Part shown: positions 8,596 to 35,109 of the stretch, one piece after another | How the letters are laid out: each line of letters opens with the position of its first letter | Numbering within the stretch: the stretch's first letter is position 1 | Translations under genes and position numbers: made by a program | Notes under the pieces: generated by a model | Database searches by the model: none | Seen by the model: only the letters and a program-made list of their open reading frames with translations | Told to the model about the DNA's origin: nothing | NCBI GenBank assembly: GCA_044892525.1 | Contig: CM097885.1 | Coordinates: 186,434,001-186,498,000, forward strand | DNA length: 64,000 bases | Direction: 5' to 3' | Source: Schmidtea polychroa | Lineage: Eukaryota

Positions 8596-8835
8596 TGTAT
8601 ACAATGATTTAATAATTTTAAAATAAAAATAATTTTAGTAATGTTGGGTACCCAAGAATAAAAAAATATATATTATACACATGCAATGATTTCAATTGGA
8701 AACAAGTTACCTCTTGAAAATTTCAATAATTATGGGAATTAGTAAATTTAATAATACTCAACAATGTAAAATATGAACTTGTCAAATTTTATATTATAAA
8801 AATAAACCACTAAAAAAAATTTCTAAAAATAAAAA

Positions 8836-11800
8836 ATGGCTACTTCAGAAAACTTCCATACCCAAGATTATTTTTGTGATTCATGTAATAGGAGTTTCAA
8901 ATCAAAAACAAGATTAATTTCACATAAAAAATCAAAAGATCATTTAAGGAAATCAAGTTTATTAGATGATAACAACTCTAAAATTTGTACCAAGTGTAAA
9001 GAAAGATATTTATTTTTAGGGTTTGATAAACATTTTAGAAATTGTATTGGAATAAAAAAAATAAGAGAATCATTTTCATGTCTCAAGTGTCATGAAGTCT
9101 TCAAAAGTAAATTTGAATTAAAGGAACACTCTAAAGAATGTGAAGATGAAGATGAAGATGAAGGTTGGGATGAATTTAATCATGCTGATGAATTTGGTAG
9201 TGAAGAAATTGGAGCATCCACAATTTATTTATATATTAAAATAAATCAACAAGAAATAAAAGAATCAATGGAAAATGCTATAAAAAAATTCAAAGGTACA
9301 AGGTTTAATATTATAAAATATAAAATAGGAATAAACGCAAAATATCGTCGACAAACTAATAAAACAAATCAAAATAACCCAAACTTTCTAAGATTTATGA
9401 TTCAAATTAATTATAAATATTTATATTAAATGAAAGGATTTATAAAAAACAATCAAAGAAATTATTCGAGCGTTGCAAGAATCCCAAGAACAATGTGAAC
9501 AGGAATTAGGAGAATCAAATTTAATTTCCCATTCTTTGAAAATATTAAAATAGATTATTGGAAAGGAAGACCCCCAGTTCCCAAATCATATATTCCAACA
9601 CCTTTTATTTCTAAACACATAATAAATGTTCAAAATAAAGATAATAAATTGTTCCTATGGGCAATACTATCAGCTTTACATCCTCAAGAACAACATTCTT
9701 ATCGAGTATCTAAATATCGACAATATGAACATGAAATTTTATTCTGGGATGGTTTTGAGCACCCAATGAAAATAGAACACATGCCAAAATTTGAAAGATT
9801 GAATCAACTTAGAATTAATATTTATGAATTAGATGGTAGCAAGGTTATACCAATTTATATTTTAGATCAAAATATGAATTCCTCAACTGTAACTTTTGAT
9901 ACAATAAGTTTATTAATATTAGAAAAGGTTTCAACTGATACAAATGATTTAGTTTCTCATTATGTTTGGATAAAATATTTTCAAAGTTTTATGAGATCTC
10001 GATCATCATCCTCTCATCGAGTACAAGGACACACTTGTGAAATATGTCTTTATTATTCAACTTCTGATGCTGTAAGAATAAAACATGATAGATTATGTAA
10101 AGATAATGAACCAGCATTAATTAAAATGCCAGAGAATCTTGAAATGAAATTTAAAAATTATTCAAATTTATTAGAATCTCTTGTTACAATTTATGGAGAT
10201 TTTGAAGCGATTAATAAACCACAAAATTTAGAACAAGAATATCTAAATGTCATAGAAAAAAATAAATTATTAGAATCGTGGTATGAATATGATTTGAATC
10301 AAGATTCTCAATCAAACCAAATAGAAAAAATGAAAAAGTTTCTCAAATTAAACAAGAAATTTTTTACAATAAAATTAACTGAACAACTTCCATCAGCATA
10401 TCATTTATTCATCAAAAGTAATTATACACAAAGAGAATCATATGAAATAGCATATCGAGGAACTTCTCCACAAGATACTCTAGATCATTTTGTTGCAAGT
10501 ATAAATTCCTTGGAATCATTCTTGTATAAAAAATTAAAAACTGATTTTGAAATGGATATTTCACCAGAAAAATTTACAGAATATGAAAATTCTACAATTT
10601 GTTGGATGTGTAAAGAAGAATTGAGAGGTTATGAAAATGTTAATAATCCAAAAGTTATAGATCATGATCATTTTAAAGAAATAAATAATTACCGATGGGC
10701 AGCTCATAATAATTGTAATTTAAGTTATAAAAAACTAAAATTTATACCAGTTACATTTCATAATCTGTTTGGATATGATATTTGTCTATTCATAAAATAT
10801 TTAGCAATTAATGCAAAAAACATTTTTAAAATTATTGGATTAACAAAAGAAAAATATAAATGTGTAGAATATGGATGTTTAAAATCCATAGATTCTCTAA
10901 ATTTCTTTACGGAGAGTTTAGACTCGATAGCAAAAACGATGAAAAGTGAAGATTTTTAATATACAATAGAGCATGTTTTGATAAAATATAATATTCCAAT
11001 TGAAGAATATAAAACATGTTTAGCAAAAAGAATATATCCATATGATTACATTGATTCATTCGATAGATATCAAGAAATAGAATTACCACCTCATGAAAAA
11101 TTTTATTCAGTATTAAGTAAATCAAATACATCAGATGAAGAAGATGCTCGAGCTAGAAAAATGTGGCAATTATTTAATTGTCAAACTATAGGAGAATATA
11201 CAAATGTGTATTTAAGTTTAGATGTTTATATTCTAGCTGATTGTTTTGAAAAGTTTGTAAAAACTTTTGCATTAAAAGCTTATAATTATATAACCCTACC
11301 ATCATTTTCTTGGGATATGTTATTATATAATATGATTTCTGAACCAGATAAAAGCATAGAATTATTATCAGATATCAACATGTTCAACATAATAAAAAAT
11401 AATATTCGAGGTGGAATTAGTTCTGGAATGGATGAAAGACGCATAACTGCACTCAATTATAAACATGTTTATAGAACTTTATTCAAAGATACAGATGAAC
11501 TACTTGTAGAAATAAAAACACAAGAAGAATATGAAATGGTAATTGAATGTATAAATAATCCATGTGAAATTTTATATATTGATGCAACTGCTTTATATTC
11601 AGGAATAATAACACAATAATTACCAATTTCTTCATTTGAATGGGTGGAAATACCTGAAAATGATCAAGCATTAAATAGATTAATAAACAAAATATTAAAT
11701 ACTCCCAAAGATTCAAATATTGGATATTTTCTAGAAGTTGATTTAAAATATCCAGATGCTATAAAATTCAAAACAAAACATTTCCCATTTGTTCCTGTAA

Positions 11801-11861
11801 AAAGAAAAATAGGAAAAGATGAATTATCCCCATGGCAACTTGAGAAAAATGAACATACTAG
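8836..11861 (+). pseudogene. Polinton protein-primed DNA polymerase B with N-terminal C2H2 zinc fingers and an endonuclease VII-like insert; truncated by the LTR insertion
   Basis: ORFs at 8836, 9649, 10978 and 11644 are all in one frame, broken by stops at 10957 and 11617 and by frameshifts near 9430-9540. Motifs: CDSC..H..H, SYIPTP..IINVQNKDNKLFLWAILSALHP, CWMC..IDHDH..YRWAAHNNCNL, DSLNF, IYPYDY, YLSLDVYILADCFE, IRGGIS, YIDATALYS, GYFLEVDLKYP. Confidence 0.9.
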
Positions 11862-12945
11862 TGTTAGGGATAGGCCTGGAGCCTTGTTGATAAAATAAAT
11901 AAAAATTACTAAAATTAGAAATAGTATAAATAAAAATTACTGAAAATAAAAGATAGGTTTAATTAATTACTATTAATAGAATTAAGTAGTATATAGTAAT
12001 ATTTGATATTACTGTTACTATATATAGTAATTATAAAATTGCTATTAATATAATAAATAATTAAAATATAATATAAATACGGGTTCAAAACGAAAACCAA
12101 GGGACGATAAAACATTGAGACACAATTTGGACGATAAATTAGAGAGAATAATTTGGAAAATTATTTAATTAAAGAAAACGTGATTAGAGAATCACTGTGT
12201 TATTTGTAATTGATTAAAGAATTTCAACGCTAGTCTAAATCAAAGAAAACGTGATTAAAGAATCACTGTGTTTATCAAAATTAAGTCAAGGAATTTGTCA
12301 ACAGTTCAAATTATATTTAAATATTTCATCGCACCAGACGACATTCCGATTCAAATTTCATATCGATTTCAAACTTGAAAAGTGACTATAAATTGACAAA
12401 CAGAATAAACAAGAGTCAGTAAGAAAATCTCTAGAGAAAAATTGGAACAGATTTGTGAACGAAAAACAGAAAAGGAGCCATTAATTTAGACAAGGTAAAA
12501 GGAGTTCATTATTTGTGTTGTGTAAGGATAAATTATTATCCTTGTGAAGTGAATTAATTAAGCGAACACAAAGCACCGATAGCGGCTTTCGTGTTACCTG
12601 GTAGCCCCAAAATCAGCCCTCTTTCTTTACCGTCATCTTTCCAATTTATTTAGCGATCGTTGTGCTACACAGGAGCCATCGATCTCTTGTAGGCTGTGGT
12701 AAACAGTAAGGATTAATAAATCCGTTTTCTTGTATTCTTTGCACATATATTATAAATTCCTGTTGTAAATTATTAAATATATTTTTGTAAGAAGAGAAAG
12801 AGTTTGTTTTTAATTCAGTGATTTAAACTTATACACGCAACCACATTAAATATAAAGTATTTATATTTATTTTTATATATTTAGTTATTCTATTTAACCT
12901 TTGGAGTCTTTAAGATCTGTAGTCCCCGTTTTTTCGATCTTAACA
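11862..12945 (+). repeat. 5' LTR (about 1084 bp)
   Basis: Starts TGTTA and ends TAACA, followed by ttt and the PBS. Its first 253 bp recur at 26070-26255 plus 27490-27556 with two mismatches. Confidence 0.85.
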
Positions 12946-12948
12946 TTT

Positions 12949-12966
12949 TGGTGAGCCCGACGTGAT
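12949..12966 (+). promoter_or_regulatory. Primer-binding site, tRNA-Trp type
   Basis: TGGTGAGCCCGACGTGAT matches 17/18 the complement (TGGTGACCCCGACGTGAT) of the 3' end of vertebrate tRNA-Trp(CCA) as I recall it. It lies 3 nt after the LTR end. Confidence 0.85.
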
Positions 12967-13084
12967 ACAATTTACGGGGGGAATAAGAATTTTATTTATA
13001 AAAGGCAAACATCTTTTTTGAATCATTGAGTTAAGAAATAGGAGAGTAATAAATTTTAGACCAGACAATAGAAATCAGCAAATA

Positions 13085-14150
13085 ATGGCAGAGATAAATA
13101 ATTTACAAAATTTAAACGAGAATAATTTACAAAATAATAATGTGCCAGTAGCTCAACCACCAGCGGTAGACTTTATGAGATACCCAACAATTCCGATTAA
13201 ACCATTTAGTGGAAACCCAGGGGAGTTTCCAGAATTTATGTCCGAATATTTTCAGTTAGCCAGAGCATTAGGATTCCCCGAACCGGTAATGATTTTGAGA
13301 TTACCTTTATAATTAAAAGGGATGGCGCGGGAAATATATAACGATGTTATAATAGCCAAGCATCCAGTTGAATGGAATTTTGCGATTAGTGTTACAAAAC
13401 AGAATATTACCGGGGGATGCAACTAGAGTGCTAAGACAACAGTTTTATAACAGGCAACCAAATTCGGGTGAGCATGTTGGGGAATTTTCATATCAAATAA
13501 TGATGTTGGCAGAGAGAGCCTTTGGCAATAGGGCAGCCTGGAATGATGCAACTAGAGCATTAGTGAAAGATCAGTTTTGGTCAGGGTTATCGTCAGCAAT
13601 GAGAAATGCACTCAGTTTACACATAGGAGATAATTTAGAGGAATTAACTCGCAAAGCGTGTTTAATTGAAAGTAGCATTGAAAAGTCAAATAATTTTGCA
13701 ATTAGTAGCAATAAGTCAGACATTGAGTGTTTTAATTGTCACAAAAAGGGACATATGTCAAAAGATTGTAAAAGTAGGAACAATTCTCCAGGGGATAAAT
13801 TATGTACCAAGTGTGGGAGAAATAATCATGTGGCATCAAACTGTAGAATTTCGGACCTAAATTGTGAGAAATGCAAGCGCAAGGGACATGTAGCGTCAGT
13901 TTGTAAAGTTAGTTTTGGGGGGAATAATTCGAATAATGATAGTAGAAATAGAAGCCCCGATAGGAATTTTCGTGGTAATAATAATAACAATAACTTTCAG
14001 AGTAGAAATAATAATTTTAATAATAATATAAAAAGGGATGAAGTAAATTCGGGGGGTAAAAATTAATGTCATAAGTGTGGAAAATTTGGTCATATTATGC
14101 GTTCATGTCCACAAAATCAGTTATCTAATAACAATGGTAGTGGCAACAAT
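13085..14150 (+). pseudogene. gag: gag (capsid-like region plus four CCHC zinc knuckles)
   Basis: PFSGNPGEFPEF, LPL*LKGMAREIY and QPNSGEHVGEF are capsid-like. Knuckles: CFNCHKKGHMSKDC, CTKCGRNNHVASNC, CEKCKRKGHVASVC, CHKCGKFGHIMRSC. There is one frameshift near 13370-13430 and stops at 13310 and 14064. Confidence 0.85.
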
Positions 14151-14936
14151 GGTAATAATCGATCAAAGCCGACAACGTTTGCAGTGAATTCAGATCACAA
14201 ATTAACGTATTTGCAGCAGCTTGAATTAGAAATTCAAGAAGAGAGAAACAGGTTAGCAAGGCTAACAACAAATGAAACTGATGGGTATGATGAAAATGAA
14301 GCTGTTTATATGACGTCAGCCAGAATAAGGCGAAATAAAAATAATTATGTAGAACTTGAAGTGTTGATGCTTCAAGAAAGTCCACAGGAGGACACAGAGG
14401 AAAAGACTATGGTCATAGAACCAGAGGTCTGTGAGGGTTTACAGGTTTCACCCAGGAAAAATCTAGTGGCTATGGCCATGGAGCCAGAAGCCAACAGAGA
14501 AATAGAAGGTTTACCTGTTTCACCAGTTAAAAATCGTAAGGCTATGGACATGGATCCAGTAGCTAATGTAATTGTTCCAACAGAAGTTTTGGAAAAAAGA
14601 TGGGCTTCGGTCACTGAGCCGGAAGTTCTTATAGCCACATCATCCATGCGAGGTGAGTGTGGTAGCGAACCAATAAAGGTTAGAGAAGCATCGAAAGAGT
14701 AAAGAAATCCCATCGATGACTGTAGAAAAATATTATTACGCAAGAGCGTATGGCAAAGAGAAATGAGACAGAAATTAGAAAATATTCGTTTAAACCCCGT
14801 TAATGAGAATGAGGTTGACAAAATAATGGATATCATATCAGAGTTAGACAGAAATGAGGAATATTATCCAGAATTGAGAGAAATTCTGAGAAATATTGGC
14901 CTAAATTGGAAACAAAGAGAGAATCTGGAGGATTCT

Positions 14937-15146
14937 AAAATTTTTGTATCTTTCCCAAAGGGTTGTTTTCGTAGATATACAATTAACCCAAGTGAAAAGG
15001 TAGAAGCATTGGCAAAGAGAGTTTCTGTGGTAAAACCTCAATTGAGATGCAAACTATATTTATTGGGAGAAAGATTATTAGAGGGAGAAACCCTGTTAGA
15101 TTGTGGTATACTACCAGGGAAACATATGGTTATAAAAGCAAGGTTT
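14937..15146 (+). pseudogene. Ubiquitin-like domain 1 within the Gag frame
   Basis: KIFVSFPKGCFRRYTINPSEKVEALAKRV...LYLLGERLLEGETLLDCGI aligns almost without gaps to ubiquitin [29 protein letters not shown]...LIFAGKQLEDGRTLSDYNI. Confidence 0.75.
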
Positions 15147-15467
15147 CACAAGGAAACTGTTACAGTAGTGGACTTGGATAATGTTCTTACAATAAGCGAG
15201 ATAGAAATTGATCAATTAAATCAAATATCAGCCGTACCACATAGATTGGGAATCGAGCTGATGAAAAACCAAAGAGATGGGGAAGCCATTAAGATGATAA
15301 TGGATTGAATACTGGAGTTGCGAATCCCAGTAGATACTCTTAGAGAGATAATGCCATTGGTGGTGCCTTTAGTAAAAGAGACATCACAATTTCAGACACA
15401 AGCAAAGATGCTGTTGATTAAAAATGGACATGCTATCAGACATTTGGAAGGTAGACAAGGTCTAGTG

Positions 15468-15674
15468 ATGTTAGATATCAGGATACCCAGGAGAGGACAC
15501 CTGATACAACAATTCTCATGTTACCATAGGGTAAAGAAACTGAGAAAAAGAATATCAGAAATAGTAAAAGAATCATTCCTAATAATGATACATGGTTGTC
15601 AGGTGGATGACGACGAATTCCTAGTAGATGTTGGATGTTTTCCCAATGAGGAAACAGTTGTATTAATATTACTG
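15468..15674 (+). pseudogene. Ubiquitin-like domain 2 (more divergent)
   Basis: MLDIRIPRRGHLIQQF..RVKKLRKRI..LIMIHGCQVDDDEFLVDVG..TVVLILL shows the beta-grasp pattern TV..LK..I / L...G..L.D...L.D.G. Confidence 0.5.
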
Positions 15675-16595
15675 GTAGAGTTTCCAGAGGATAAATGGGC
15701 AACCTTGAGATTGCCAGATAATGCTGAAATGGAGGATGAAACTGTACATCCCGAGCAAAAATAAGTAGATGGGGATATTCATCAAGAACCCGTAACTACA
15801 GTAGATTTAGATGAAGAGATAGATAAATATCTCAAGGAACTTGATAACACTGAAGACGAGTTGGTCGAACTATTTCCTACAGAGGAAGATAATGAAGTAC
15901 AATTAAATCGAGATGAAACAAACATCGGAGCTAGTACATCGCGACAAGTCGAGCCACCAAAAATAAGGGTGAGCCCGAAATTAGTCGAGAATAAAAAGAA
16001 AAAGGAGAGAAGGGGTAGACCGAGGAAAAGTCAAATGAACCCGCCTCCAAGAGAACTTCTAAAACCAGTTACAATAGAAAATGTAACAAAGTAGGCTCTA
16101 GCAGGGATAGCTAGCCAAATCGATAAAAGCGTTGAAGACGCTAGTGATAAAACAGAAACATGGAAAAGACTGAATCAAATCTTACGACTGATTAAGCCCG
16201 ATTGGCAAATCAAAAAAGATAAAAGTGTTAATGTTGACAAAATTGCAGAAAAAGTCAAGAAAGCTATGGAAAAGATTCCAGGAAGCACCACAGAACAGGA
16301 GATGTTCGAAGTAGCAGGACAATTCATAGATGAAGGCCTGACGAAAGGGAAAATGATAACGATTCTAGCCTTAATGTTTAAAAATGCATTGAGCATAACT
16401 AGAGATGATTCGTCGAAAATCCCAGCAGCCATAGATAGGCTGGCTGATATCATCGAAGTGAATTTCGGAACATGAATGACTGAGCACAAGTTTTGGGAAA
16501 AAAAAGAAACGAAAGGAAATTATGAATTGAATGAAGAGTTGTTGACAGAAAATAGTTCAAGTAGTCCACGGGGAACAGGTGGATTTACTAGTTGG

Positions 16596-18430
16596 ATGAT
16601 GATGTTGTTGGTAATGATGTGAGTATTGCGACAGACAAATTCCTTAACGGCATATGATTGTAGCGAACCAATACTATCGCGAATCTACTCATTAGTAGAC
16701 ACAGTGGAATGCAAGGAAGCATATCCAGATAAAGTTGCAAAAAGGGAAGACGTGGAATATCATGTTTATCAGCAAACAGAGTTTTACAGAACCAGAGTGA
16801 GGGAATGTCGAATCCAGAGAGCGACGTTTGAATATTACTGTGGATCGAATAGTTATTCAGCATTTTTAGGAGCTAAACTCATTCCCATACCATTAATCAT
16901 CCCACCAGAGGATTGTGTAAATGCTTTTCGGTCAAAAACAGTTAAAATAGATCATGAGGTAACAATTACCGCAGAAGAAGGGAAAAGGTTGGGTATAACT
17001 ATTACCCCGGGAGGACCGATAGCAGATAATGGATCTTGTCATGGTAGAAAGAAAGTAAGAGGTTCTAATGTAGTAAGTTATGTGGTAACAGTTGAGGATT
17101 ACACAGTAGAGCTGATCGAGTACGAAGGAACTTTCGAAGTATCCACGGGAAAAATGATGTCTCATCCAAAATGCAACGTGAAATATGGTTATTGTAAAAC
17201 CAGTTTGCAGTATTAACGTACCAATCAATGAGAGATTTTTGTGATTTAGGATACCTGAAAAAGGTAGTATTTTCAAGGTTAGATGGGAAAAGCTTTACGT
17301 CTCAAGATTCACAACAAAGTGGTTTGGCAGACAAGATAGCTCACAAAACGAAAAAGGAAGTGGGACCAGAGAAAAGCACAGCAGTAGTATTAGTCTCAAA
17401 GGATCCAACAGATGCGATTCGTTTAGTCAGAAAGAAACAGACAACAAAATGTGGCGTACCAATATTTGAAACCAACTACAAGGGAATATACTTAGCATAC
17501 AAATATGTTCCGGCAGCAGAATCATTACATCTATCAGATATTAAAGTAGCCAAGTATATCAATAATAAGATTGATTTCTTGTATCATGATCTGCAGAAAC
17601 AATTATTAGATGTGTATCAGGAAGTGATCCTGAACGACTGTCGTTTAAATCGGGAAATAATACGAAATAGATTAGCAATATCTATAGCTAATCCTGATTT
17701 AATAATGCCAATGTTGACAGAGGAAGGAACATTTGGTAGAATTTTGGGTGAAGCAATTTATAGCTATCAATGTAAAGCAATAGAGGTAGAAATCACCAAA
17801 TATGATCGATGTACATTGGAGCTACCTGTGAAATATAAAGGAAAATTGAGATTCCTGATGCCAGTATCACACCAGTTATTAAAGGAGGATACCTCACCAT
17901 TAACAGCAATTTGCAATCCAGCAATGTCACCATTATACAAAATCAACAATATTTGGATTTCGTTGCCAGACAGAAAGCCGCCTTCAAAACCAGTTGAAGT
18001 GCTTCAAGCGACAAAGTTAGAAACTAAAATGGAGTTTCAACCATTAAACGAGATGTCAAAAAGCGGAGTATATACTCCAGAAGATATTGAAGAAGCTCGG
18101 AGAGCAATTGTATTTCCCCAAATCAGAGATCGGGGAGTGACAGAGATAATAACAAGAATTTATCAATCATATGATGGAAAACCGGACTATAATTTATTAT
18201 TTGGACCAGAACATTACAAACAAGCTGCATCAAATGTAATACGGAAAATCTGGGGTAGATTTACAAGCTTTGGCATTTTTGTAGCAGGATGTTCAGGTAT
18301 ATATGCAATAGTGATGATATTGAAAATAATCATATCGCAATTGTTTTCCACCTATAGCATCTTCAAGATCCGGGGATGGTCTTGGAAGTTGCTACTAGGA
18401 ATGTGTCCAGTTTGTGCAGATTTTGCAGTA
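16596..18430 (+). pseudogene. Env-like glycoprotein of chuvirus G type
   Basis: Hydrophobic leader WMMMLLVMM*VL, then LTAYDC..YSLVDTVEC, C.I....YYCG, NKIDFLY, DCRLNRE, GEAIYSYQCKAIEV, RCTLELPVKYKG..FLMP, C.....PLY..NIW. C-terminal hydrophobic helices FGIFVAGCSGIYAIVMILKIII follow. There is a frameshift near 17220. Confidence 0.7.
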
Positions 18431-19019
18431 TTTCATCATCATAATAAAGAGATTAAGAGAATGAAGAGACAAACTATAAAGAAGCATGAGTTAATAATGT
18501 ATGAATCTAGTCATCGAGACGATGACAATTCTGACGAGGGAGGTAACCTAGAGGGCTATGAGACCTCAGACAACACCTCAATGAAGCCAGACAACAAAAA
18601 ACCGAAATTTCAAAATTTTGAAAATAGTACTTTACAACAGTACCCTGTTAAAGCAAAAAGGAGGAAACGGCAGGAGTGGCCTGTGAATTATTTGTCACCA
18701 TACGTGGGTAGAAAAAAGATAATACCAGAACGAGTCGAAGAGGAAATGCTAAAGAGGTTCGAGTTTAGAACAAATACAGATATACTACCATCTACCTCAT
18801 ACCCAACGTATAAAATGAAGTTCGAGACAATGCCACCCTTGGGTACATCAGTATTGGAGATGGTACCGAAATATCCATTAAGCACGTTGGAACGGCTAAA
18901 GGAAGAGTATAAAGATGAAATAAAATCAGAAAATGACAAAGATAGTAATGATCAACAAAAGTTCAGAGATAATATTAGAGGAATCTCAACAATATTAATG
19001 GTCAATATGGGTAAAAAGA

Positions 19020-19572
19020 CTCATAAACCTACGATTAAACTAAAAGTTAACAGGCATACGGTACATGCCATTATTGTTTCAGGATCAGATTTGACATTGA
19101 TCGAAGCAAATTTATTAAATGAAAAAGAATTACAACAATAGTGCCGACATTAACTGTGGCATCGGGAGCAAATGGACAACCTATCAATGTTATCGGAACA
19201 TTAGATTGTGAATTAAGGTTGTGTGATCAAAAATTCAGACACGATATCAAGGTCACTAGACAATGTATGGCAGAATGTATCGTGGGGATGGATATATTGA
19301 AAAAGCTAAAAGATATTGTATTCGATTGGGCAACAGGCGAATTAGTGAAAATGACGGGTAGAAAACGGAAAACCTACAGTGTGGATGTAGTGTTTTTGGA
19401 TAGAATGGTGACAATACCACCGAGGACCGAAACAGTTTGTTTTGTAGCAACACATCAAGAGGTGGAAGGAGATGTTATTTTCGAACCGAGTGAGCAGTTC
19501 GTAAATAGGTATAAAACACCTATGGTGCAAAACTTGGCAACAGTACGGGGAGGAAGAATCCCGATTAGATAA
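19020..19572 (+). pseudogene. Aspartic protease (active site mutated) and post-protease beta domain
   Basis: KPTIKLKVNRHTVHAIIVSGSDLTLI (D[S/T]G has become VSG), a frameshift at 19141, then GANGQPINVIG and CIVGMDIL. Confidence 0.8.
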
Positions 19573-19593
19573 ACAAATCTAGCGAGTAAATCA

Positions 19594-20988
19594 TTGAGAT
19601 TATACCCAGAGACTAGAGTGGGTAAAGTAATACAACTATCTAACATGCAGAAAGAGTCTGAATCGATATTATCAGTAGAAGAGGATGAACGAGATCCTGA
19701 TATCGAATATTACGACGCACCGAGCTGCGATAGTAAAGCCTTATCTAGAAAAGAGAATATCAGAGTTAATCAATTGTTACGGAAATATGACCAAGTTTTC
19801 GCAAAACACGAATATGACTTAGGGCAAGTTAATATTCTAGAGCATGAAATTAAACTAACAGAAAATAAACCGATAAAAATACGCCCATACAGAATACCTC
19901 AAAGTAAACAAGGGTCCGTAGATAAACAAATCAAATTAATGCAAAAATATAATATAATCAGACCCAGTAAATCTCCTTATTCCTCACCTTTGGTGGTTGT
20001 AGCTAAAAGAGACGGCTCAGTCAGATTATGCAATGACTATAGGAAATTAAATGAACAAACAGTTAGTGATAATCACCCGCTACCTTTGCTAGATTACATT
20101 TATGATAAAATGAAAAATTCAAAGTTGTTTACTGTGATGGATGCACAGAAAGGTTTTTATCAAATAAAGATGAGCGAAGACTCAATTCCTATGACAGGAA
20201 TTTCTACAAGTAGTGATCATTTTGAATACTTAGTAATGCCGTTTGGATTAAAAGGAGCCCCTCCAACTTTTCAGAGGGCAATGAATATCATGTTGATGGA
20301 TGCACATCACGCAATGGTATATATAGACGATATTATCATCTTCTCGGAAGATTTAGATAAGCATTTGGAACACCTTGAGGACATTTTCAAACGATTGATT
20401 ATGGCAAATCTGAAAGTAAAGCCAAGCAAATGTAAATGGGCAGAATCGGAAGTGATTTACGTGGGTCATGTAATATCACACGATTGCGTAAGACCAGATC
20501 CGGCTAACACGGATAAAGTAAAGAATTTCCCACAACCAGTGAATGTGAAACAAATCAAAGGATTTCTAGGGTTGACGGGATATTACCGGAAATTTATACG
20601 AAATTTTTCAGCAATTGCTTTTCCATTAACTACCTTAGAAAAGAAAGGTATAAAATTTTTATGGGAAGAAGATAAGCAACAGGCATTTGATAAGTTAAAG
20701 GATGCACTATGCAAACCACCAATTCTACGATTTCCAGACTTTAAAAGACAATTCATGGTGATGACCGATGCATGCACAAGAGGTATAGGTGCAGTTTTGG
20801 GACAGAAAGACGAAATTGGTGATGAGTACGCAGTAGCATATGCAAGTCTTGGATTGAAGCCACACGAGAAAAGTTATGCAGTAATAGAATTGGAAGCATT
20901 AGCGTTAGTGTTTGCAGTGGAAAAATTTAGTCATTACCTATGGGGCAGAAAGGTAATTTTCTATACGGATTATAGACCATTGCAATGA
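19594..20988 (+). pseudogene. pol: Reverse transcriptase and RNase H
   Basis: RPYRIP, SPYSSPLVVV, RLCNDYRKLN, MPFGLKGAPPTFQR, YIDD, FLGLTGYYRKFI, TDACTRGIGAVL, ELEALALV, YTDYRPL. The TGA at 20986 replaces the W of PLQW. Confidence 0.95.
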
Positions 20989-21033
20989 CTGTTAAAACAT
21001 AGAGACGAAGCATCAAAATTAGTAAGATGGGCA

Positions 21034-22359
21034 TTGAGATTACAGCCATATAATATCGAAATTGTATATCGTAAAGGTAAAGCTAATGGTAATGCAGACA
21101 CATTATCACGAATGGAACTAGAGCCCGAGTTAGAAGATATAAAAGAAGGAAGATTAGAAGGAACTATCTTCATGCTAACAAGAGAGGCTAACACTTTGAG
21201 CGATTTAGTAGAAGCACAGAAAAATGATGACGAAATCAATATGATCAGACAAGCTATAGAAGCAAAGGCCATACCAAATGAATTCCAGAAATATTGGGAG
21301 AAACATAAAGATAAATTCATATTGGAAGAAGGTCTAATCAAATACGTGGAATCAAGGGATAATGTAATATTAGTGCCAAAGAAATATAGAGAATCACTAT
21401 TATTACAATACCACGATGGAGCACTGGGAGGACATCTCTCAGCTAGACATACACTGTCAAGATTGAAAATGAAATACTTTTGGCCAGATATGAAAGATGA
21501 TGTTAAAAAGTGGTGTCAATCGTGTAAGATATGTATAACCAGAAGGAACACAGGCAGGAAACCACATGTTCCATTGAAACCAATGCCAGTACCGTCCTCG
21601 CCAATGGAGATGACTGCTATGGACGTACTAGAGCCGTTTAAAGAATCAAAGATGGGAAATAAATTTATCATTGTATTTTGCGACTATTTAACGAAGTGGC
21701 CCAAAGCATTCCCAATTCCGAATCATAAGGCAGACACAATTGCCAGAATCTTTGTAGAACAAATTGTATTTAGATATGGTGTTCCGACAAAATTGCTTAC
21801 CGACAGAGGAAAGGATTTCATGCGTAATTTGTTAAAAAGTATAAATGATTACTTTGGTATTTTAAAGTTAAATACCTCACCATACCACCCACAGACGGAT
21901 GGATTGGTAGAAAGGTTCAATGGAACCTTGGCAAACATGTTATCATCATACGTAAACTCAGGTCAGACGGACTGGGATGTACACATGCCATCTTGTTTGT
22001 TTGCGTATAGAAATGCTGTTCATTCAGTAACAGGAGAAACACCTTTCTATTTGATGTATTTAAGGCATAGCAAGATGCCAGTGGATCTTATATTTTATCC
22101 GAAAGCGTCACAGAATTGTGATGAGGGAAATTACTTATTCGAGATGAGAGAGAGAATGCAAGAAGCCTGGGAGAAAGCAGGTTTGAACATTCGTTATAAC
22201 CAAGAAACAATGAAGGAATATCATGATCGTAAAGCGAAGGACCATGGGTTTTTGGTAGGAGATTATGTCATGTTAGAGGGACATTACAACAAAAAAGGTT
22301 TATCTCCAAAATTAATGAGAAATTACAAAGGGCCGTATCAAATTTTGAAAGTCACATAA
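21034..22359 (+). pseudogene. pol: Integrase (HHCC, DDE, GPY motifs)
   Basis: HDGALGGH..CQSCKIC, AMDVLEP, LLTDRGKDF, PYHPQTDGLVERFNGTL, KGPYQI. In frame with RT upstream and with the 22372 ORF downstream. Confidence 0.95.
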
Positions 22360-22371
22360 ACCAATTTAGTC

Positions 22372-23499
22372 TTGCAGTTAGTGGCAAACAGAAAAGCAGA
22401 ACCGATAATGGTTCATGCAAACAGATGTAAAAAGATAGCCGCACCAGAAAAGGAGAAACCAAAATCCGATATTGATGAATTCGAAATAGACAAGAAATCG
22501 AAAAAGAAAACGTTAGAATCATATAAAAGTATCCTAAAGGGACAACCGGAACGATACCCTTTACGATCTCGGCAAATCCCAAAAACAGTTACATTTTTAG
22601 CAGTGATTAGTTGTGTTATGATGATTGGACAGGCATTCGAGGTATTCACACCTAAAGCCAGTCAACATCCAGATATCGAATATCAACGAACAGATGGAGC
22701 ATTCAGATTTCATTTAACGAATATGCAATGGCATAGATATGATCTATATTTGGTAGCTGCTGAAAGAGGGATATCATTTCACTTGAATACATGGGATCGA
22801 GTAAAAGTAATAGAGGGACTGATGCCGAATACAAGTTATCTATTAGAAATCAAGACATTCTTTGCAGACCCAAACGTTTTCGCAGACGGAGGAGATTGTG
22901 TAGATAAAGCATCATGGATTTTGAAGACTGAAAAATTTACCAAAAAAGTAGAGATTTCATATCTCGGGCAGATAGTAAGATTTACTCATCCACTGTGGAA
23001 CAGAAATGACACATCTTCCACTCACGATTGGAGGACGAATAATAAAATTGCGCTAATCGTCATATTAGAAAACGACCAGCGAGTCGAGAGATTAGTGCTC
23101 AACCATGCATATCTAAGTAGAAGATGGAAAATCAAACCAGATACCGTGACAAAGGCGAATATTTCGTATTTGGAATTTACGGAGAGAACCGGTTGGTATA
23201 CAATATATCAAGAAATAGTAAATCTAATACCTCCCACAAAGGGAGAACTAACTAGCAAAGAAGGAAAGGCTAGATTAGTGAGTATTCCTGGTTGTAAAGG
23301 AATAAATGCTTTGGATTGGTTTAGTATTAGAAAGGTAGCGAGTGTAAAACAGCCCCGCATAACTAAATTAATTAATAATTGTAGTTGTCAAAATACGTTA
23401 AAGGGGACAACGAGAGATAAAACGTCAACTTGGCTATTGTTAATTATGTTAGGGGGAGTAATTTGCATGATTTTAATTTTGATATTAACCACCCTATGA
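22372..23499 (+). pseudogene. Integrase tail followed by signal peptide, FN3-like ectodomain and C-terminal TM segment
   Basis: RYPLRS (a typical integrase tail) is followed by hydrophobic VTFLAVISCVMMIGQA, FN3-like IEGLMPNTSYLLEIKT and terminal TWLLLIMLGGVICMILILILTTL. Same frame as the integrase, separated by one TAA. Confidence 0.55.
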
Positions 23500-23762
23500 A
23501 TGTTTAGATTAAACATGCGGGATATTCGTTATTGGGAAAATATTTACGAAACCGAGGTATAGGGGGAAAGTCTCACCATATACTAGGAAGTGTAAATATA
23601 TATAGTTATTTATTTTATATGTTATTTATATTAGTATGTAGACTATTGTGGGCTCCAATGAGCATCTGTAAAATCAGACATCAGCGTATGTCGACTTTGG
23701 TTACCCTGCGAGGGTCTATCACGAAAGGGATAAAAGCTGTTAATTATTTTATTTTTAGAAAA

Positions 23763-24944
23763 ATGAATTATAACAGAGAACCAAAGCCACCAGTCAAAGC
23801 AAATCGACGACACCCATTGGCAACGTACAATTCCCAAACTCGAGTTGAAACTGAAGTGTATAGCACCTATAAAGAAGAGTATGTATATCGGTTCATCGGA
23901 ACCACGGTCGCAGCAAAAATGAATCACCTCACCTCAAACTATTGGTATTATCCCAGGAGAGTGGATATTCCAAACGATTTCAAATTCCCAGGAGGGCCTC
24001 GAAGACAAATGATGATAACGGTTATAAATAACCAAGGTAGATTAAAATTGGCGGAACTATGTAGGGAGTATGGTTCATGTCCGAAATTGGAAAACATTTG
24101 GATCCATGCGATCAATAGACCATTCACTGTGCTTATGGCGGGATTAGAGTTACCTGTTGAATTAGAAAAACAGTGTACTCTGGAGATATACCACGCTGAT
24201 GGACGAGAACGGAATATTATGATCCAGGCAGCGGCGGTGGACACCATAATCGCAGTAGAAATCTTGGATTTCAGGAAGCCATACTCTATAGTTAGCAAAA
24301 ACGAGCCAACTTGGATTTATAATGTAAATGAAGCTGATATACAGCAGTGTAAATCATTTGTGAGGAAGAAGTTAACCAAAGCCGAGGAGGACGAGGCTAC
24401 AATTTTCATATCGGTAGGTTTTGCCAAATCCCGAATCGAATTAAAGGAGACAATTATCCAAATCGCAATTATGGATATGAGAGGAAATAATTTATTGAGT
24501 GCGGTAGTGACCCCCAGAGACCCTGTAAAACACTACCAAACGCACCAATACAAGCTAAAGGAACCTGATATTAGAGGAAACCTCGACGAAGATGATTGTT
24601 ATCATCTGATAAGAAAGATCTGCGATAAGAAAATACTTGTAGGTATTTTGCTTAAAGATCTGATCTCGGTAGCCAATCTACCAGTGCAGCGAATATTGGG
24701 TGTTCGTGACCTTTCGGCAAAAAAACTATTGGAAACCAGAGGAGTCCCAAAGATTCATGGTCATTACAGATTGGGATTCCTGACAAAGACTTTCCTACGT
24801 ACGGTTCCCGGAGAGCCAAGGAATTTAGTGGTCACCAATGAGGCACTGGCGATACGTGCGGTTTATTTACATATCCGAAACGAATGGTTAGACCACGATA
24901 CCTCAGGAGGAATTCATTTCCGCAACTACAGCAGCGATAGTTGA
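23763..24944 (+). CDS. Accessory ORF with a C-terminal degenerate DEDDh (REX4/ISG20-like) exonuclease domain
   Basis: Intact frame; the likely ATG is 23763. The C-terminal part IQIAIMDMRGNNLLSAVVTPRDPVKHYQT, KILVG, RDLS, RLGFLTKTFL, NEALAIRAVY..EW follows the REX4/ISG20 pattern but lacks the catalytic acidic residues. Confidence 0.6.
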   Translation: MNYNREPKPPVKANRRHPLATYNSQTRVETEVYSTYKEEYVYRFIGTTVAAKMNHLTSNYWYYPRRVDIPNDFKFPGGPRRQMMITVINNQGRLKLAELCREYGSCPKLENIWIHAINRPFTVLMAGLELPVELEKQCTLEIYHADGRERNIMIQAAAVDTIIAVEILDFRKPYSIVSKNEPTWIYNVNEADIQQCKSFVRKKLTKAEEDEATIFISVGFAKSRIELKETIIQIAIMDMRGNNLLSAVVTPRDPVKHYQTHQYKLKEPDIRGNLDEDDCYHLIRKICDKKILVGILLKDLISVANLPVQRILGVRDLSAKKLLETRGVPKIHGHYRLGFLTKTFLRTVPGEPRNLVVTNEALAIRAVYLHIRNEWLDHDTSGGIHFRNYSSDS

Positions 24945-24951
24945 ACAGGAA

Positions 24952-25824
24952 ATGACACAGAAGAGGAGATTACCTGAGCAACCATCTACATCAGAGCAAC
25001 CCCAGCCCAAGAGGAAATCACCTGTGGATCTACCACCGCCTCCAGCTACATCTATTGGAGAAGATGAATATGAAACATGTGCTAGTGAAATGGAGACAGC
25101 AAAATCACCTAAACAATCATCGAGAGCTGCCTATCAGCCAAAGGATAAATCGGATAATGCGGTCAGGAAAGAAATTTCAGAAGGAGGCAAGGTGAAAAAG
25201 ATTTTAAAGAAAATGTTACCCATATAAAGAGACAAGTCGAAGCTAAAGTTGAAGAAAGTTGTTAAACCGTCGGAAGGAACGACAAAAGAGACACCCAGCA
25301 GTATGGAAGATAAGAAGAAACCTCAAAAGATATTCAGCGAACCAGACGATGACATTATGGAAGTTGCGTTTCAACCTTCGGTTAAGGAGATGCAGGAAGC
25401 AATAAAGGTTAAATCTGAACCTGTGGTAAAGCAGAAAATGTTGAAGATTGCCAAGGAGAATATCATCAAGAAACCAGTTTCGGTTGATGTGGACGGTTTC
25501 GAACCAATGTGGTACAAACGTCCGGATAGTAAATGGAAACCCAGAGCTAAGGAGTATGACTGCCAACCAGTCACGAGAATGGCAGTCAATAATAATCAAA
25601 AATATGATGTTTATGACGTAGACGGGATCCCTTACGTGGTGTCTACAGTCATATTAACGAGTGCTCTGGATGGTAAGCCTTTGGCAGTGAGCTTTGAGCC
25701 GGAAGTCTTGCAGAAGAGGAAAAAGAAGTTGCTGCAGCAGTACGTCGTTGCAAATAGCTACAGCACGAAGGAGTTGCACCTTTACAAAGTTCCAGACCCA
25801 GATCTCGATGATCTGGATATCTAA
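24952..25824 (+). pseudogene. Second accessory ORF (about 290 codons; basic, low-complexity N-terminus), unknown function
   Basis: ORFs 24952-25227 and 25249-25824 share a frame, separated by a single TAA. It lies just upstream of the PPT and 3' LTR. Confidence 0.55.
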
Positions 25825-26052
25825 TCCAAGAGCGTTGCCACCCAACATGTGTCGCCGAATTCAAAATGTGTATAAAATGACTTAACTATTATTTGATTTG
25901 TGCTATTCAGTGTTTTGACATTTATTATTTGTGATCTGAAACATTCATTTTATGTTTTGTCTTATTTGATTAATTTTTATGTTTTTATTGTAATGCTGTT
26001 TACCAAAAGCCTTTCTTTAGTCTTGTTTTTTCTTGTTTTCGAGACGAAAATC

Positions 26053-26069
26053 TTTTAGGGGGTAAGACT
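26053..26069 (+). promoter_or_regulatory. Polypurine tract
   Basis: ttttagggggtaagact lies immediately before the TG of the 3' LTR at 26070. Confidence 0.65.
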
Positions 26070-26255
26070 TGTTAGGGATAGGCCTGGAGCCTTGTTGATA
26101 AAATAAATAAAAATTACTAAAATTAGAAATAGTATAAATAAAAATTACTGAAAATAAAAGATAGGTTTAATTAATTACTATTAATAGAATTAAGTAGTAT
26201 ATAGTAATATTTGATATTACTGTTACTATATATATTAATTATAAAATTGCTATTA

Positions 26256-27487
26256 CAGGGTTATTCATTATTATAAATACTTTTATGCAAAATTATAAAT
26301 ACTTTTATTCATTATTATAAATACTTTTTGTTTGAACCGCATGTCGCGCAAAATTAGAAAACCATTGACTTTGGATGGGTATAATTTCATAATAAGGCTT
26401 TCCAATGATGTTTCAATGACACTGAAAAATATATCGGAAATTACAGGATATTCCATAACAACAATAAGAAGAGCTATTGATGATCATCGCCAACAACGAG
26501 TATTTGTTAGCTCGGGCACAAAATTAAGGAACAAAATTAAAGAAAGAAATGCGGTTTTTACTACAGAAGAGTTGGTGATTCATAATTTAGTTTCATGCAA
26601 TAATCTTTTGACGCAATCAGAAATTTCAGAATCAGTACAGATTAGTACAAATAAAAAATTGTCGCAGTCAACAGTCTGCAGGAAATTAAAAAAATGCAAT
26701 ATAACGAGAAAAAGAGTTTCTTTAATTCCTGAGGAAAGAAATAACCAGGATAAAATTGACGCACGATCGATTTATGCCTCTGAAATTTCTAGGTTTGAGC
26801 CTGAATCATTAATTTTCCTGGATGAAACAGGACAACACAACACGCACATACGGATATTCAATTAAAAACTCCCAGTGTTATACAAACGTTAGAGCGAATA
26901 AGGGAGTGAACAATAGTGTAATGTGTGCTATTTCTGTAAGAGGCCTTGTCGAGTACGAAATAATTACAGGGGCATATAATTCAATTAGGTTTATTGAATT
27001 TATTGAGACAAAATTGGTTCCTTACTTTGCTGCGCACTCAAATTCTATTTTGATCATGGATAATTGTCGTTTTCATCATTCGCGTGAGGTTGCAAATGTT
27101 TTTTCTCGCAATAACATATCTTATAAATTCTTACCTGCATATTCGCCGCAGCTTAATCCAATTGAAGAATTTTTTTCTATGTTAAAATCAAGATTTCATA
27201 GGGATAAAATTGATCAACCAACTTCTACCATCAGAGAAAGATTGGCCAGAATATTTTGGATGGACTTTTCCGAGCCCTGTAATGGATTTTATATAAACAT
27301 GCGACGTTGGATAGAAAAAGCCAGGGCCAGAGAACAGTTTTTATAAATGTTAATTAAATTTCAAGTTTCAAAAGTGCTTTTTTATTTTGAATAAAAGTAT
27401 TTATAATAATGAATAAAAGTATTTATAATTTTGCATAAAAGTATTTATAATTTTGCATAAAAGTATTTATAATAATGAATAACCCTG
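26256..27487 (+). mobile_element. Tc1/IS630-family DNA transposon
   Basis: TA duplication at 26254-26255 and 27488-27489; the empty site gctat-TA-atata is visible in the 5' LTR. TIRs start CAGGGTTATTCATT and end AATGAATAACCCTG. Confidence 0.95.
26332..27346 (+). pseudogene. DD34E transposase with one frameshift
   Basis: HTH region, FLDETG, IMDNCRFHHS and FLPAYSPQLNPIEEFFS, with 34 residues between D and E. Frameshift near 26830-26860. Confidence 0.9.
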
Positions 27488-27556
27488 TAATATAATAAAT
27501 AATTAAAATATAATATAAATACGGGTTCAAAACGAGAACCAAGGGACGATAAAACA

Positions 27557-28350
27557 ATCCAATTAAAATATATCTTGGTCGATATGCTAAATTTGCTACC
27601 TTTATAGAGTATGTTGAATCTTCTCTCATGTCAAATACACTACAGATTCTATTTAAATAATTTACATTTATGGACTTATTGGAATTTAATCTTTCCAAGA
27701 GTTTAATTTCAGCATGTGGATTTAATGTCCATTCGGGTATATGTAATTCAATTGTTGTTAATTATAATTTAGCTTTTGTATCTGCAGCTCCATAAAATAA
27801 TACTTTATCATCTATTACTCTATTACATAGTAATTCTATAAAAACATTATGAAGTACACGATTATAATTTTGAAGTAATCCAAATAAATTTTTCAATTCT
27901 AAATAACCTTCAAATTTTTTAGATTTATAAAGTTGAACTTGTTTATGATAACCATAATTTATATCTAAGCCATCTTTATCTAAATCACCTTTGTTAACAT
28001 CAGGGATCCAACCTGTTAATTCACCATATTTATTTTTGTAATCACAACCAGTCAAAACAAAATTTAACATTGTAGAATATACACCTACACTTGATATATT
28101 TTCAATTTCTCATGATCCTAATTTTAATCTCATGCTGTTAAATAAATTTTAAAAGAAATTATTTTCTAGGGTAATATTTTTGTTTGCTTCAATCTCTAAT
28201 TCAATTTTGTAATATAATTTTTGATGTTTGGAGAGATTGAAAAACTATATCACCTCCACGATTTAAATTTGAAATGGAACCAGAAGTTGGACAAATTTTA
28301 AGTACATCATTTTTCTTGATTTCATGAATAAACTGTTTATCATAATCAAG
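27557..28350 (-). pseudogene. Polinton major capsid protein remnant, cut at the LTR junction
   Basis: Minus-strand LNRGGDIVF, ITLENNFF, MRLKLGS*EIE, LKNLFGLLQNYNRVLHNVFIEL and AYRPRYILIG resemble Polinton/adintovirus double jelly-roll capsid motifs. Many stops and frameshifts. Confidence 0.7.
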
Positions 28351-33428: not shown

Positions 33429-33730
33429 TTCTTATTGCTGTACGACCAATTTCTGAGACTGAGGATTGGCTCTCTTGGACAGCCTCGACAAATTATTGCA
33501 CATCACGATTAGTAAGCAAAATGTAAATTAGTAATTATTGGAAAATTTTAATTAACAATTTTAATCGAGAACTAATTACATTAATACATTACGCAAGATT
33601 GTGGATAGATCTGTTACAAAATTATTAAATCTTATTATTATAAGAATTTGTCTTAAAATAATAACAAAAACCAATGGACTATAACCATAACCATAAAGGC
33701 CAAATTCGTTGCGATAAACAGAATTTATTA

Positions 33731-34969
33731 CAGGGTTATGCAAATCCTTATTTATACTAATCAATATACCTTTTTAATTAAAAGTTTTGAAAAAAATAAC
33801 AATAAGGGTCGCAAAGCAAGGACAACACTCAACAATGAACTTAGAGATCGTGTAATAAATTCTTCCAAAAAACCAAATTCTACTATTAAGGATCTTTCAG
33901 AAACCTTTCAACTGGATAGAAAGACAGTTAGAAAGATCCTAAGAGACGAAGAGAATAAAGTCGAGTTTGTACCGGGCGCTGAGAAGTGTAGGAAGACCTG
34001 TCGTCAAAGGTCACCGACTCTAAATCCAGAAGAGAAGGGAATACTCAACATTATAAGCTGCAACAACTCACTTATACAGGATGAGGTAAAAACCCTCTTG
34101 AGCAACGAATTCGGAATAAATACGACGCAATCAAAGGTTTCTAGAAAGTTGAAGAATCTTAAGCTAACCAGAAAAAGATTGACCCGTATTCCGATTGAGA
34201 GGAACACTGATAATCGCCTAGATGAGAGAGCAATATATGCATCTGAAATTTTAATGATAGGTGATGAAAACCTGGTATTTCTTGACGAAACGGGCTTCAA
34301 TCTGCACACAAGTAGGGCATACGGGTATTCTCCTATAAACACAAAAGCTTTTATCTAAGTTCCTGCTAACAGAAATGTGAATAGAAGTTCAATTTGTGTG
34401 ATTGGTATAAATGGTATAGTTGCCTATCAATATCGAACTGGTTCATATAACCAATTTCTATTTATCGAGTTTATATGTGAACATCTAATTCCCTACTTTC
34501 GACAAAACCCAGGCAAATTTCTGGTAATGGACAATGCAAAGTCTCATTCAAGAGATGTCCAGATTTTATGGTCCGAAAATCGAATTCCCGTTAAATTTCT
34601 AATATCTTACTCACCAGAGCTCAACCCAACTGAAGAGTTTTTTTCGATGTTAAAATCACGATATCATGGATTGAAAGCTGCCAACGCAAACATAAGGATA
34701 GAAGATGCTTTAGATGAGTTACTGGGAACTGATATATCTTATGGAGTAGAATATCGTGGTTTTTACTCTAATATGAGGGTATGGGTTGAAAAGGCAAGAC
34801 GAAGGGACCAATTTATATAATAAATGATCCTTTGAAATATATTTATGACGTTTTTAATTTTTTATCTCTCAACCCTCATATTTATATATTTTTATTAAAT
34901 GGGCATATAGATTTGCATAAATGGGGATATAGATTTGTATAAATGAGTATATAGATTTGCATAACCCTG
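33731..34969 (+). mobile_element. Second Tc1/IS630-family transposon
   Basis: TA flanks at 33729-33730 and 34970-34971. TIRs are CAGGGTTATGCAAATC and GATTTGCATAACCCTG. Confidence 0.9.
33738..34820 (+). pseudogene. Tc1-like transposase with one in-frame stop
   Basis: FLDETGFNLHTSRAYGYS, VMDNAKSH and YSPELNPTEEFFSMLK. ORFs 33738 and 34377 share a frame, with TAA at 34356. Confidence 0.9.
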
Positions 34970-35109
34970 TAAATATTTAATGAGAAATTAATAATCACAA
35001 TTCCTAACAATTCGGAAATATTTGAATTAATAAAAAAATAAAATAAATCTTTTCGAAATAATAATAAATCAAGGCAGTGAGATCATTAGAAGGGAATCTC
35101 AATGAAAGA

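What the first reader, a model, noticed from the sequence alone, without database searches (positions are those of the whole stretch)
13085..23499. Gypsy polyprotein with a chuvirus-type envelope gene between gag and protease
Seen: from 13368 to 17216 every ORF is in one frame, separated by single stops. ORF 17228-19141 joins the glycoprotein C-terminal half, its TM helices and the protease N-terminus in one uninterrupted frame. Pol then continues in one frame to 23499. Repaired, this is roughly 3450 codons: Gag-Ubl-Ubl-G-PR-RT-RH-IN-FN3/TM. Known: env-bearing LTR elements (errantiviruses, chuvirus-G-bearing BEL/Pao elements) normally place env after pol, and giant single-ORF Gypsy elements with accessory domains have been described in planarians. 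Inference: an env fused upstream of PR implies a polyprotein that threads the ER membrane and is cut by signal peptidase and PR, a virus-like strategy I do not know from retroelements. An alternative split is a real stop-start at TGA-ATG 16473-16478, giving ORF1 (Gag-Ubl) and ORF2 (G-Pol).
Basis: partly seen in the sequence, partly recalled or inferred. Interest (0 to 1): 0.88.

Follow-up and report, generated by a model that had tools for sequence, protein, structure and literature searches.

The report
Broken copy of Burro-like enveloped retrotransposon
This is a mutated copy of a likely recently mobile retrotransposon family, likely from a planarian flatworm, whose one giant reading frame holds a virus-type membrane-fusion gene between its capsid and enzyme genes; that layout is already published, and only a predicted second surface protein at the end of the frame may be undescribed.

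Summary
Window 11862-27556 is a Ty3/Gypsy element with LTRs and a tRNA-Trp primer site. All 12 stops tested and three frameshifts in its long frame are private to this copy. A 775-codon ORF2 holds a degenerate ISG20-like exonuclease. The TGA-ATG split is refuted. G is under strong purifying selection (dN/dS 0.03-0.05). Two further families in the genome show the same single-frame order.

The layout is not new. Arkhipova and Yushenova 2019 describe planarian Burro elements with Gag-Ubl-BCL2-Env-PR-RT-RH-IN in one frame, and Chary and Hayashi list six GAG-ENV-POL elements in Schmidtea mediterranea, one about 69% identical to this G over 153 residues (hand count). Processing by signal peptidase plus the element's protease is inferred, not shown. 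I did not find the post-integrase FN3 membrane protein in the texts I could search. Verdict: new member of a known kind; modest interest.

The parts
11862..12945 (+). 5' LTR (TG...CA, about 1.08 kb)
   Evidence: LTR pairs of 25 of 30 other copies are 99.1-100% identical
12949..12966 (+). Primer-binding site complementary to the 3' end of host tRNA-Trp
   Evidence: the pattern built from it hits genes that ARAGORN calls tRNA-Trp(CCA); the same site, in one copy slightly changed, in all 10 copies of related families
13085..14123 (+). Gag: capsid-like region (by position) and four CCHC zinc knuckles; broken here by stops at 13310 and 14064 and a frameshift near 13380
   Evidence: Pfam zf-CCHC, 4 stretches, E 5e-14 in a natural copy; breaks
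14931..15683 (+). Two ubiquitin-like domains (14931-15149, 15459-15683) around a helical spacer
   Evidence: PF00240 E 0.006-0.008, below cut-off, first domain only, in this family; E 6e-6, above cut-off, two stretches, in the aligned region of family C
16086..16508 (+). Bcl-2-like domain (BH1/BH2-like motifs); holds the private stop at 16473
   Evidence: profile of six family members: 59 of 60 listed PDB hits are Bcl-2 family, best BOK E 4e-4; Pfam Bcl-2 E 2e-5 to 0.01, all below cut-off; fold search inconclusive
16584..16643 (+). Internal signal sequence for G (predicted); holds the private stop at 16620
   Evidence: hydrophobic segment at this place in all families and in 12 public long homologues; sits where stand-alone G proteins have their N-terminal signal
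16644..18442 (+). Chuvirus/Monjiviricetes-type class III fusion glycoprotein: ectodomain 16644-18247, membrane region 18248-18442; frameshift near 17210
   Evidence: PF24664 E 2e-81; AlphaFold model of a natural copy, pLDDT 82.8; best viral match Tacheng tick virus 4 G, E 4e-36; best PDB matches herpes gB, E 2e-13
19022..19326 (+). Aspartic protease; frameshift near 19140
   Evidence: RVP E 9e-9 and gag-asp_proteas E 6e-8 in a natural copy
19369..19656 (+). Conserved domain between protease and RT, at the place of the dUTPase-like domain reported for Burro; identity not shown here
   Evidence: 30-93% identity across families; no dUTPase hit in PDB or Pfam
19819..22431 (+). RT, RNase H, integrase (Gypsy order)
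   Evidence: best PDB hits E 8e-80 (4ol8) and 4e-79 (7q5b, Ty3-G Gag-Pol) against 1e-27 or weaker for retroviral RTs
22582..23562 (+). Predicted second type I membrane protein: signal 22582-22638, two FN3-like domains 22639-23241, TM 23422-23505, short tail
   Evidence: hydropathy; AlphaFold model of low confidence, pLDDT 52.9, matches FN3 pairs (Foldseek E 4e-8; Z 8.8, rmsd 2.9 over 82 residues for one domain); Atlas lead fn3 0.92 for family C
23508..25824 (+). ORF2 (775 codons in natural copies, broken here) with an ISG20/REX4-like DEDDh exonuclease domain at about 24393-24898 that lacks the motif I acidic residues
   Evidence: profile hit ISG20L2 E 8e-8; alignment; Atlas lead 0.86
26057..26067 (+). 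Polypurine tract
   Evidence: sequence
26070..27556 (+). Truncated 3' LTR (26070-26255 and 27488-27556), split by a Tc1/IS630-like transposon at 26256-27487 with a TA duplication
   Evidence: 186 nt at 99.5% and 69 nt at 98.6% to the 5' LTR; DDE_3 E 1e-25; ends

Best explanation
This is a dead copy of a Ty3/Gypsy family whose unbroken members encode Gag, two ubiquitin-like domains, a Bcl-2-like domain, a class III fusion glycoprotein, Pol and a predicted FN3 membrane protein in one frame, likely made as one membrane-threaded polyprotein that would be cut by host signal peptidase and the element's own protease. Shown: the single frame, the domain order, the G fold, purifying selection on G, near-identical LTR pairs. 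Inferred: Gag, the Ubl domains and the Bcl-2-like domain stay in the cytosol; the segment before G opens translocation into the ER, is cut by signal peptidase and would remain as the tail anchor of the Bcl-2-like domain; G crosses back by one net TM pass, so Pol is cytosolic and tethered to G's tail until the protease frees it; the segment after integrase opens a second translocation and yields a separate FN3 surface protein. The likely purpose is enveloped particles that move the element between cells of the host, with the Bcl-2-like domain keeping the producing cell alive. It is a compact relative of the planarian Burro elements.
For: 9 of 30 copies hold an unbroken 3516-codon frame; 10 of 142 rows agree. 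G membrane motif and protease motif share a stop-free frame in 21 of 30 copies, BH2-like motif and G start in 22 of 30. Family B (3368-3369 codons, 3 of 3 fetched) and family C (3334-3361 codons, 4 of 4 fetched; copies chosen for their long frames) keep both signals and both TM regions at 37-54% identity. G ectodomain dN/dS 0.03-0.05 at dS 0.6-1.1, like protease (0.04) (one pair of natural copies). Small residues at -1 and -3 of the predicted cut in all families and in most of 75 of 87 shorter homologues that had the motif. Four public chains hold G, PR, RT, RH and IN together. The same order is published for Burro.
Against: No protein, RNA or particle data. The G ectodomain of the annotated copy has no N-glycosylation sequon and no R-x-K/R-R site. 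The G membrane region has two or three adjacent hydrophobic segments, so one net pass is assumed because Pol must be cytosolic. The first signal is only moderately hydrophobic in this family (1.97 against 2.3-2.8 in families B-D). The Bcl-2-like domain is below Pfam's cut-off in every family and no Bcl-2 chain was among the 50 fold matches listed. The FN3 model is of low confidence.
Confidence: 0.75

Rival explanations
1. Same genome layout, but most G is made from a spliced or internally initiated RNA that starts at a Met in or before the first signal, giving G-Pol apart from Gag.
For: Several Met codons lie in the signal in all families. From general knowledge, retroviral and insect errantivirus env is made from spliced RNA, and 1:1 Gag:Pol is unusual.
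Against: No stop or frame change between Gag and G in any unbroken copy of three families; the linker and signal are conserved in frame (dN/dS 0.01). G would still be fused to Pol.
Confidence: 0.15
2. The polyprotein is processed as described, but G no longer drives entry of free particles; it serves in direct cell-to-cell passage or in anchoring assembly to a membrane.
For: No infectivity data exist in the papers read; Chary and Hayashi treat copy number as evidence of expansion only. No sequons in the G ectodomain.
Against: The whole class III ectodomain with its conserved cysteines is kept under strong purifying selection, more than an anchor would need.
Confidence: 0.2
3. Two ORFs, Gag-Ubl and G-Pol, split by a real stop-start at 16473-16478.
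For: The TGA-ATG is in the window.
Against: Sense codon in 26 of 26 covering copies; it falls inside the BH2-like motif; a second private stop at 16620 would end that ORF2 after 48 codons.
Confidence: 0.01
4. G is a one-off viral insertion into an ordinary Gypsy copy, or an assembly chimera.
For: None found.
Against: 39 other places match the G-protease junction at 91-97%; 2165 and 2580 first-look candidates for G in the genome; the junction region is covered in independent runs.
Confidence: 0.01

Closest known systems
Burro / GYPSM1 giant Gypsy elements of planarians (Arkhipova and Yushenova 2019, PMC6431247, section 7 read whole; Grohme 2018 and Jurka 2007 only as cited there)
   Same: One ORF with Gag, CCHC knuckles, Ubi2/SUMO-like, BCL2-like, env related to mononegaviral fusion proteins between BCL2 and PR, then PR-RT-RH-IN. 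[quoted passage not shown]
   Different: About 15.3 kb and 3516 codons against more than 30 kb and 4873-5140 aa. No MATH, BIR, ankyrin or midasin hit here. The review's text names no FN3 membrane protein after integrase and no exonuclease ORF for Burro; its figure was not visible.
GAG-ENV-POL errantiviruses with HSV/gB-type ENV, Smed_errantivirus_1-6 (Chary and Hayashi, eLife RP108449, PMC13524379)
   Same: Gene order, gB-type ENV, Ty3/Gypsy POL, similar span. Smed_errantivirus_4 matches window 16738 onward at 105 of 153 residues by hand count, so it is likely this family's counterpart or a sister family.
   Different: The paper speaks of three ORFs; 'polyprotein', 'fused', 'Bcl', 'ubiquitin', 'fibronectin' and 'exonuclease' do not occur in its main text. 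It lists no tRNA primer for the Smed elements; here it is tRNA-Trp.
Nematode endogenous retroviruses (Sacco et al. 2022, J Gen Virol; not held)
   Same: ENV before POL, as Chary and Hayashi describe it. That the frame is a continuous gag-env-pro-pol is my recall only.
   Different: Different host phylum; Chary and Hayashi find the GAG-ENV-POL elements not monophyletic. Not compared by sequence here.
Chuvirus / Monjiviricetes G and BEL/Pao elements that carry it
   Same: Same glycoprotein family and fold.
   Different: Only 16-20% identity to the top viral G models. Polyprotein-embedded G rows form their own branch apart from 25 stand-alone G rows (quick tree, SH-aLRT 99, rows chosen by similarity). 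The Pol here is Gypsy, not BEL/Pao.

Membership tests
Ty3/Gypsy (Metaviridae) | Pol order PR-RT-RH-IN | tested here: met
Ty3/Gypsy (Metaviridae) | RT closest to Ty3-type RT | tested here: met
   Ty3-G Gag-Pol E 4e-79 against 2.5e-48 for the next entry and 1e-27 or weaker for retroviral RTs; nearest-hit test, no RT tree built
Ty3/Gypsy (Metaviridae) | TG...CA LTRs, tRNA primer site, PPT, short target duplication | tested here: met
   4-bp duplications readable in several copies such as c04, c08, c14, c27; this window's 3' LTR is truncated
GAG-ENV-POL gB-type errantivirus (Chary and Hayashi) | ENV between GAG and POL | tested here: met
GAG-ENV-POL gB-type errantivirus (Chary and Hayashi) | ENV of class III, gB-like fold, flanked by a signal and a TM | tested here: met
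GAG-ENV-POL gB-type errantivirus (Chary and Hayashi) | POL falls in their Platyhelminthes clade | not testable with these tools
   their POL sequences are not held as loci or proteins; only the ENV was compared, by hand
Burro | Env in frame between gag and pol in one ORF | tested here: met
Burro | Ubl and BCL2-like domains before Env | tested here: met
   weak scores, consistent across families; fold test inconclusive
Burro | dUTPase-like domain between PR and RT | tested here: inconclusive
   a conserved domain is there but gave no dUTPase hit
Burro | Giant size (over 30 kb, ORF near 4900-5100 aa) | tested here: not met
   LTR spacing 14208 nt, 3516 codons; so Burro-like, not Burro itself
Infectious endogenous virus | Enveloped particles that enter new cells | not testable with these tools
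   needs bench work

The most novel reading that the evidence does not exclude
These elements are enveloped agents with a two-protein entry machine cut from one polyprotein: the class III fusogen before Pol and a fast-evolving FN3 attachment or decoy protein after integrase, with Pol tethered between two membrane anchors and the fusogen's signal doubling as the anchor of an anti-apoptotic Bcl-2-like protein. This would be a flavivirus-style expression plan with a separate receptor-binding protein in a retroelement that spreads among planarian cells. The post-integrase signal-ectodomain-TM unit is kept in three families here and in two public polyproteins, and I did not find it in the texts searched.
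Probability: 0.25. Interest if true: 0.65.

Novelty: new member of a known kind. Interest (0 to 1): 0.33.

Why it matters
The headline feature is published, so it is no surprise to a specialist. What this adds is a compact, likely recently mobile family with many natural unbroken frames, which shows the single-frame layout without any reconstruction and shows that the fusogen is under strong purifying selection. It also points to a second predicted surface protein and a tRNA-Trp primer. That makes an open question from the Burro literature easier to test by observation in the animal: whether these elements make enveloped particles and how their polyprotein is cut.

Tried and rejected
Expression: no RNA holder listed; the four runs laid were contigs with RNA status guessed or unknown, and no listed joint showed GT..AG ends, with 15 joints not shown; this says nothing either way. 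Binding of the G ectodomain to the FN3 pair: no answer, score 0.00, alignments not used. dUTPase for the PR-RT spacer: no hit. Bcl-2 fold: not among the 50 matches listed for the 724-residue model, whose Bcl-2 part rested on few rows. A profile of the FN3 region found nothing significant in the public long proteins (best E 0.16); their likeness rests on hydropathy and an FN3-type motif seen by eye. Positive selection on the FN3 region: considered because it is the least conserved folded part (61% between subfamilies), rejected since dN/dS is 0.14-0.20. Weak hits dismissed: TcdA_TcdB E 0.022 and spike heptad designs. Two word-based protein searches returned one hit each. Earlier-finding look-ups by words and by sequence were blank. 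The careful G tree did not finish; only the quick tree is cited. Sacco 2022 and Grohme 2018 were not held.
Full report
1. Observation. Pfam finds zinc knuckles, a weak ubiquitin hit, PF24664 Monjiviricetes_fusion in both G pieces (E 4e-19, 3e-62), then RT, RNase H and integrase. The element is larger than the finding: a 5' LTR at 11862-12945, a primer site at 12949 that matches host tRNA-Trp genes, a polypurine tract, and a 3' LTR from 26070 that is split by a Tc1/IS630-like transposon and cut short at 27556.

2. Is the single frame real? A DNA search across the G-protease junction scored 40 of 212 candidates; the 39 besides the window match at 91-97%. I fetched 30 of these 39 as they lie. Nine of 30 carry one unbroken 3516-codon frame followed by a 775-codon ORF2; two of the nine belong to one tandem array. 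They differ by 5-118 bases over 10551. None of the 12 window stops tested is a stop in any covering copy (25-30 of 30 cover each), and the three frameshifts near 13380, 17210 and 19140 separate the window from 24-30 of 30 copies. The TGA-ATG at 16473-16478 is therefore decay, not a gene boundary. LTR pairs are 99.1-100% identical in the 25 of 30 copies with a long self-match, five of them 100%, which suggests recent movement.

3. Other families. Protein and profile searches gave 2165 and 2580 first-look candidates, of which 142 and 68 were scored. I fetched ten copies chosen mainly for long open frames: a subfamily (3513 codons), family B (3368-3369), family C (3334-3361) and two broken family D copies. 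A, B and C keep the same order with a hydrophobic segment before G, a membrane region after it, and a second signal and TM after integrase. Family C has no long ORF2. In public data 1143 proteins match the G ectodomain; of the 11 top hits scanned (ten over 1100 aa), four hold G, PR, RT, RH and IN in one chain, and two of those show a post-integrase signal, ectodomain and TM.

4. Domains. G: an AlphaFold model of the Bcl-2-to-G region of a natural copy (101 rows, pLDDT 82.8) matches chuvirus-type G best among viral models (E 4e-36) and herpes gB among solved structures (E 2e-13; Z 9.6, rmsd 9.4 over 428 residues). Between subfamilies A and A2 the ectodomain has dN/dS 0.03-0.05 at dS 0.6-1.1. 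Pfam scores are below cut-off (E 2e-5 to 0.01, none in family B), but a six-row profile returns Bcl-2 family chains in 59 of 60 listed PDB hits; the fold search did not list one. Ubl: weak in A, above cut-off with two stretches in C. Post-integrase unit: a low-confidence model (pLDDT 52.9) gives two beta-sandwiches that match FN3 domains in two searches, and the Atlas gives the same lead for family C. ORF2: profile hit to ISG20L2 (E 8e-8); motif I acidic residues are present in family D and absent in A, A2 and B, so it is likely a catalytically dead RNA-binding fold here. DEDD-type extra ORFs are known in rotifer LTR elements (PMC5408684, passages).

5. Mechanism. Shown: one frame, domain order, G fold, selection, recent copies. 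Inferred: a cytosolic Gag-Ubl-Ubl-Bcl-2 part; an internal signal at the place where stand-alone G proteins carry theirs (motif within the first 50 residues in 75 of 87 shorter homologues, mostly small residues at -1 and -3); one net TM pass that returns Pol to the cytosol; a second signal that exports the FN3 pair. Signal peptidase would make the two luminal N-termini and the element's protease would free the cytosolic parts. Against: no expression or protein data, no sequon or furin-type site in the G ectodomain of the annotated copy, and an ambiguous number of TM segments after G.

6. What is known. [quoted passage not shown] Chary and Hayashi (PMC13524379; abstract, first parts of sections 5 and 6, sections 14 and 22, passages, rows of two supplements) report GAG-ENV-POL elements with gB-type ENV in Nematoda, Bryozoa and Platyhelminthes and list six from Schmidtea mediterranea. 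Their Smed_errantivirus_4 ENV matches the window's G at 105 of 153 residues by hand count, which is also my main ground for calling the host a likely planarian. Sacco 2022 was seen only as a reference and as described by Chary and Hayashi. PMC11410931 was seen in passages and mentions Burro once.

7. What may be new. The FN3 membrane protein after integrase was not found by word searches inside three papers or by two library searches; Burro-directed searches gave nothing further. Figures, Repbase entries, Grohme 2018 with its supplements and Sacco 2022 could not be seen and may show it. The reading that G's signal doubles as the Bcl-2 tail anchor is my inference.

8. Verdict. Real, well supported as to anatomy, and a new member of a known kind: a compact Burro-like GAG-ENV-POL Gypsy element. 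It fails the size criterion for Burro itself. Interest 0.33; the two-protein entry reading has probability about 0.25 and would deserve about 0.65.

Noticed in passing
window 26256-27487 and about 33657-34972: Two related, broken Tc1/IS630-like transposons (DDE_3 E 1e-25 and 4e-11); the first sits in the 3' LTR with a TA duplication.
   Followed up: partly
window 8833-11861 and 27762-28109: The element is inserted in decayed ORFs that look by eye like Polinton/Maverick DNA polymerase B and capsid remains (recalled motifs); Pfam gave no such hit.
   Followed up: partly
window 49604-64000: Tandem array of a 1524-bp unit, near-identical copies, each with a 224-codon ORF that starts with a hydrophobic segment and has no Pfam hit.
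   Followed up: no
G000:C4 from 55022433 (L082): Large tandem array of tRNA-Trp genes with a 284-bp period; the pattern had 890 matches genome-wide. This is the primer tRNA of all the families seen.
   Followed up: partly
L027-L028 against L061-L062: Subfamilies A and A2 are mosaic: dS 0.1-0.18 in Gag, Ubl and RT but 0.4-1.3 elsewhere, which points to recombination between subfamilies.
   Followed up: partly
P0001, P0005, P0006, P0014: Public relatives carry two or more aspartic protease-like domains after G; P0005 has a further one after integrase.
   Followed up: no
P0007: A G-PR-RT-RH-IN polyprotein that its source labels as from a Flavobacteriaceae MAG, likely animal DNA in that bin.
   Followed up: no
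copies c13, c15, c26, c28 (L025-L056): Several copies are inserted in (AAT)n runs, a possible target preference, not tested against background.
   Followed up: no
L063-L068 (family B): In family B, ORF2 follows the ORF1 stop in the same frame, while in family A it overlaps in another frame and family C lacks it; how ORF2 is expressed is unexplained.
   Followed up: no
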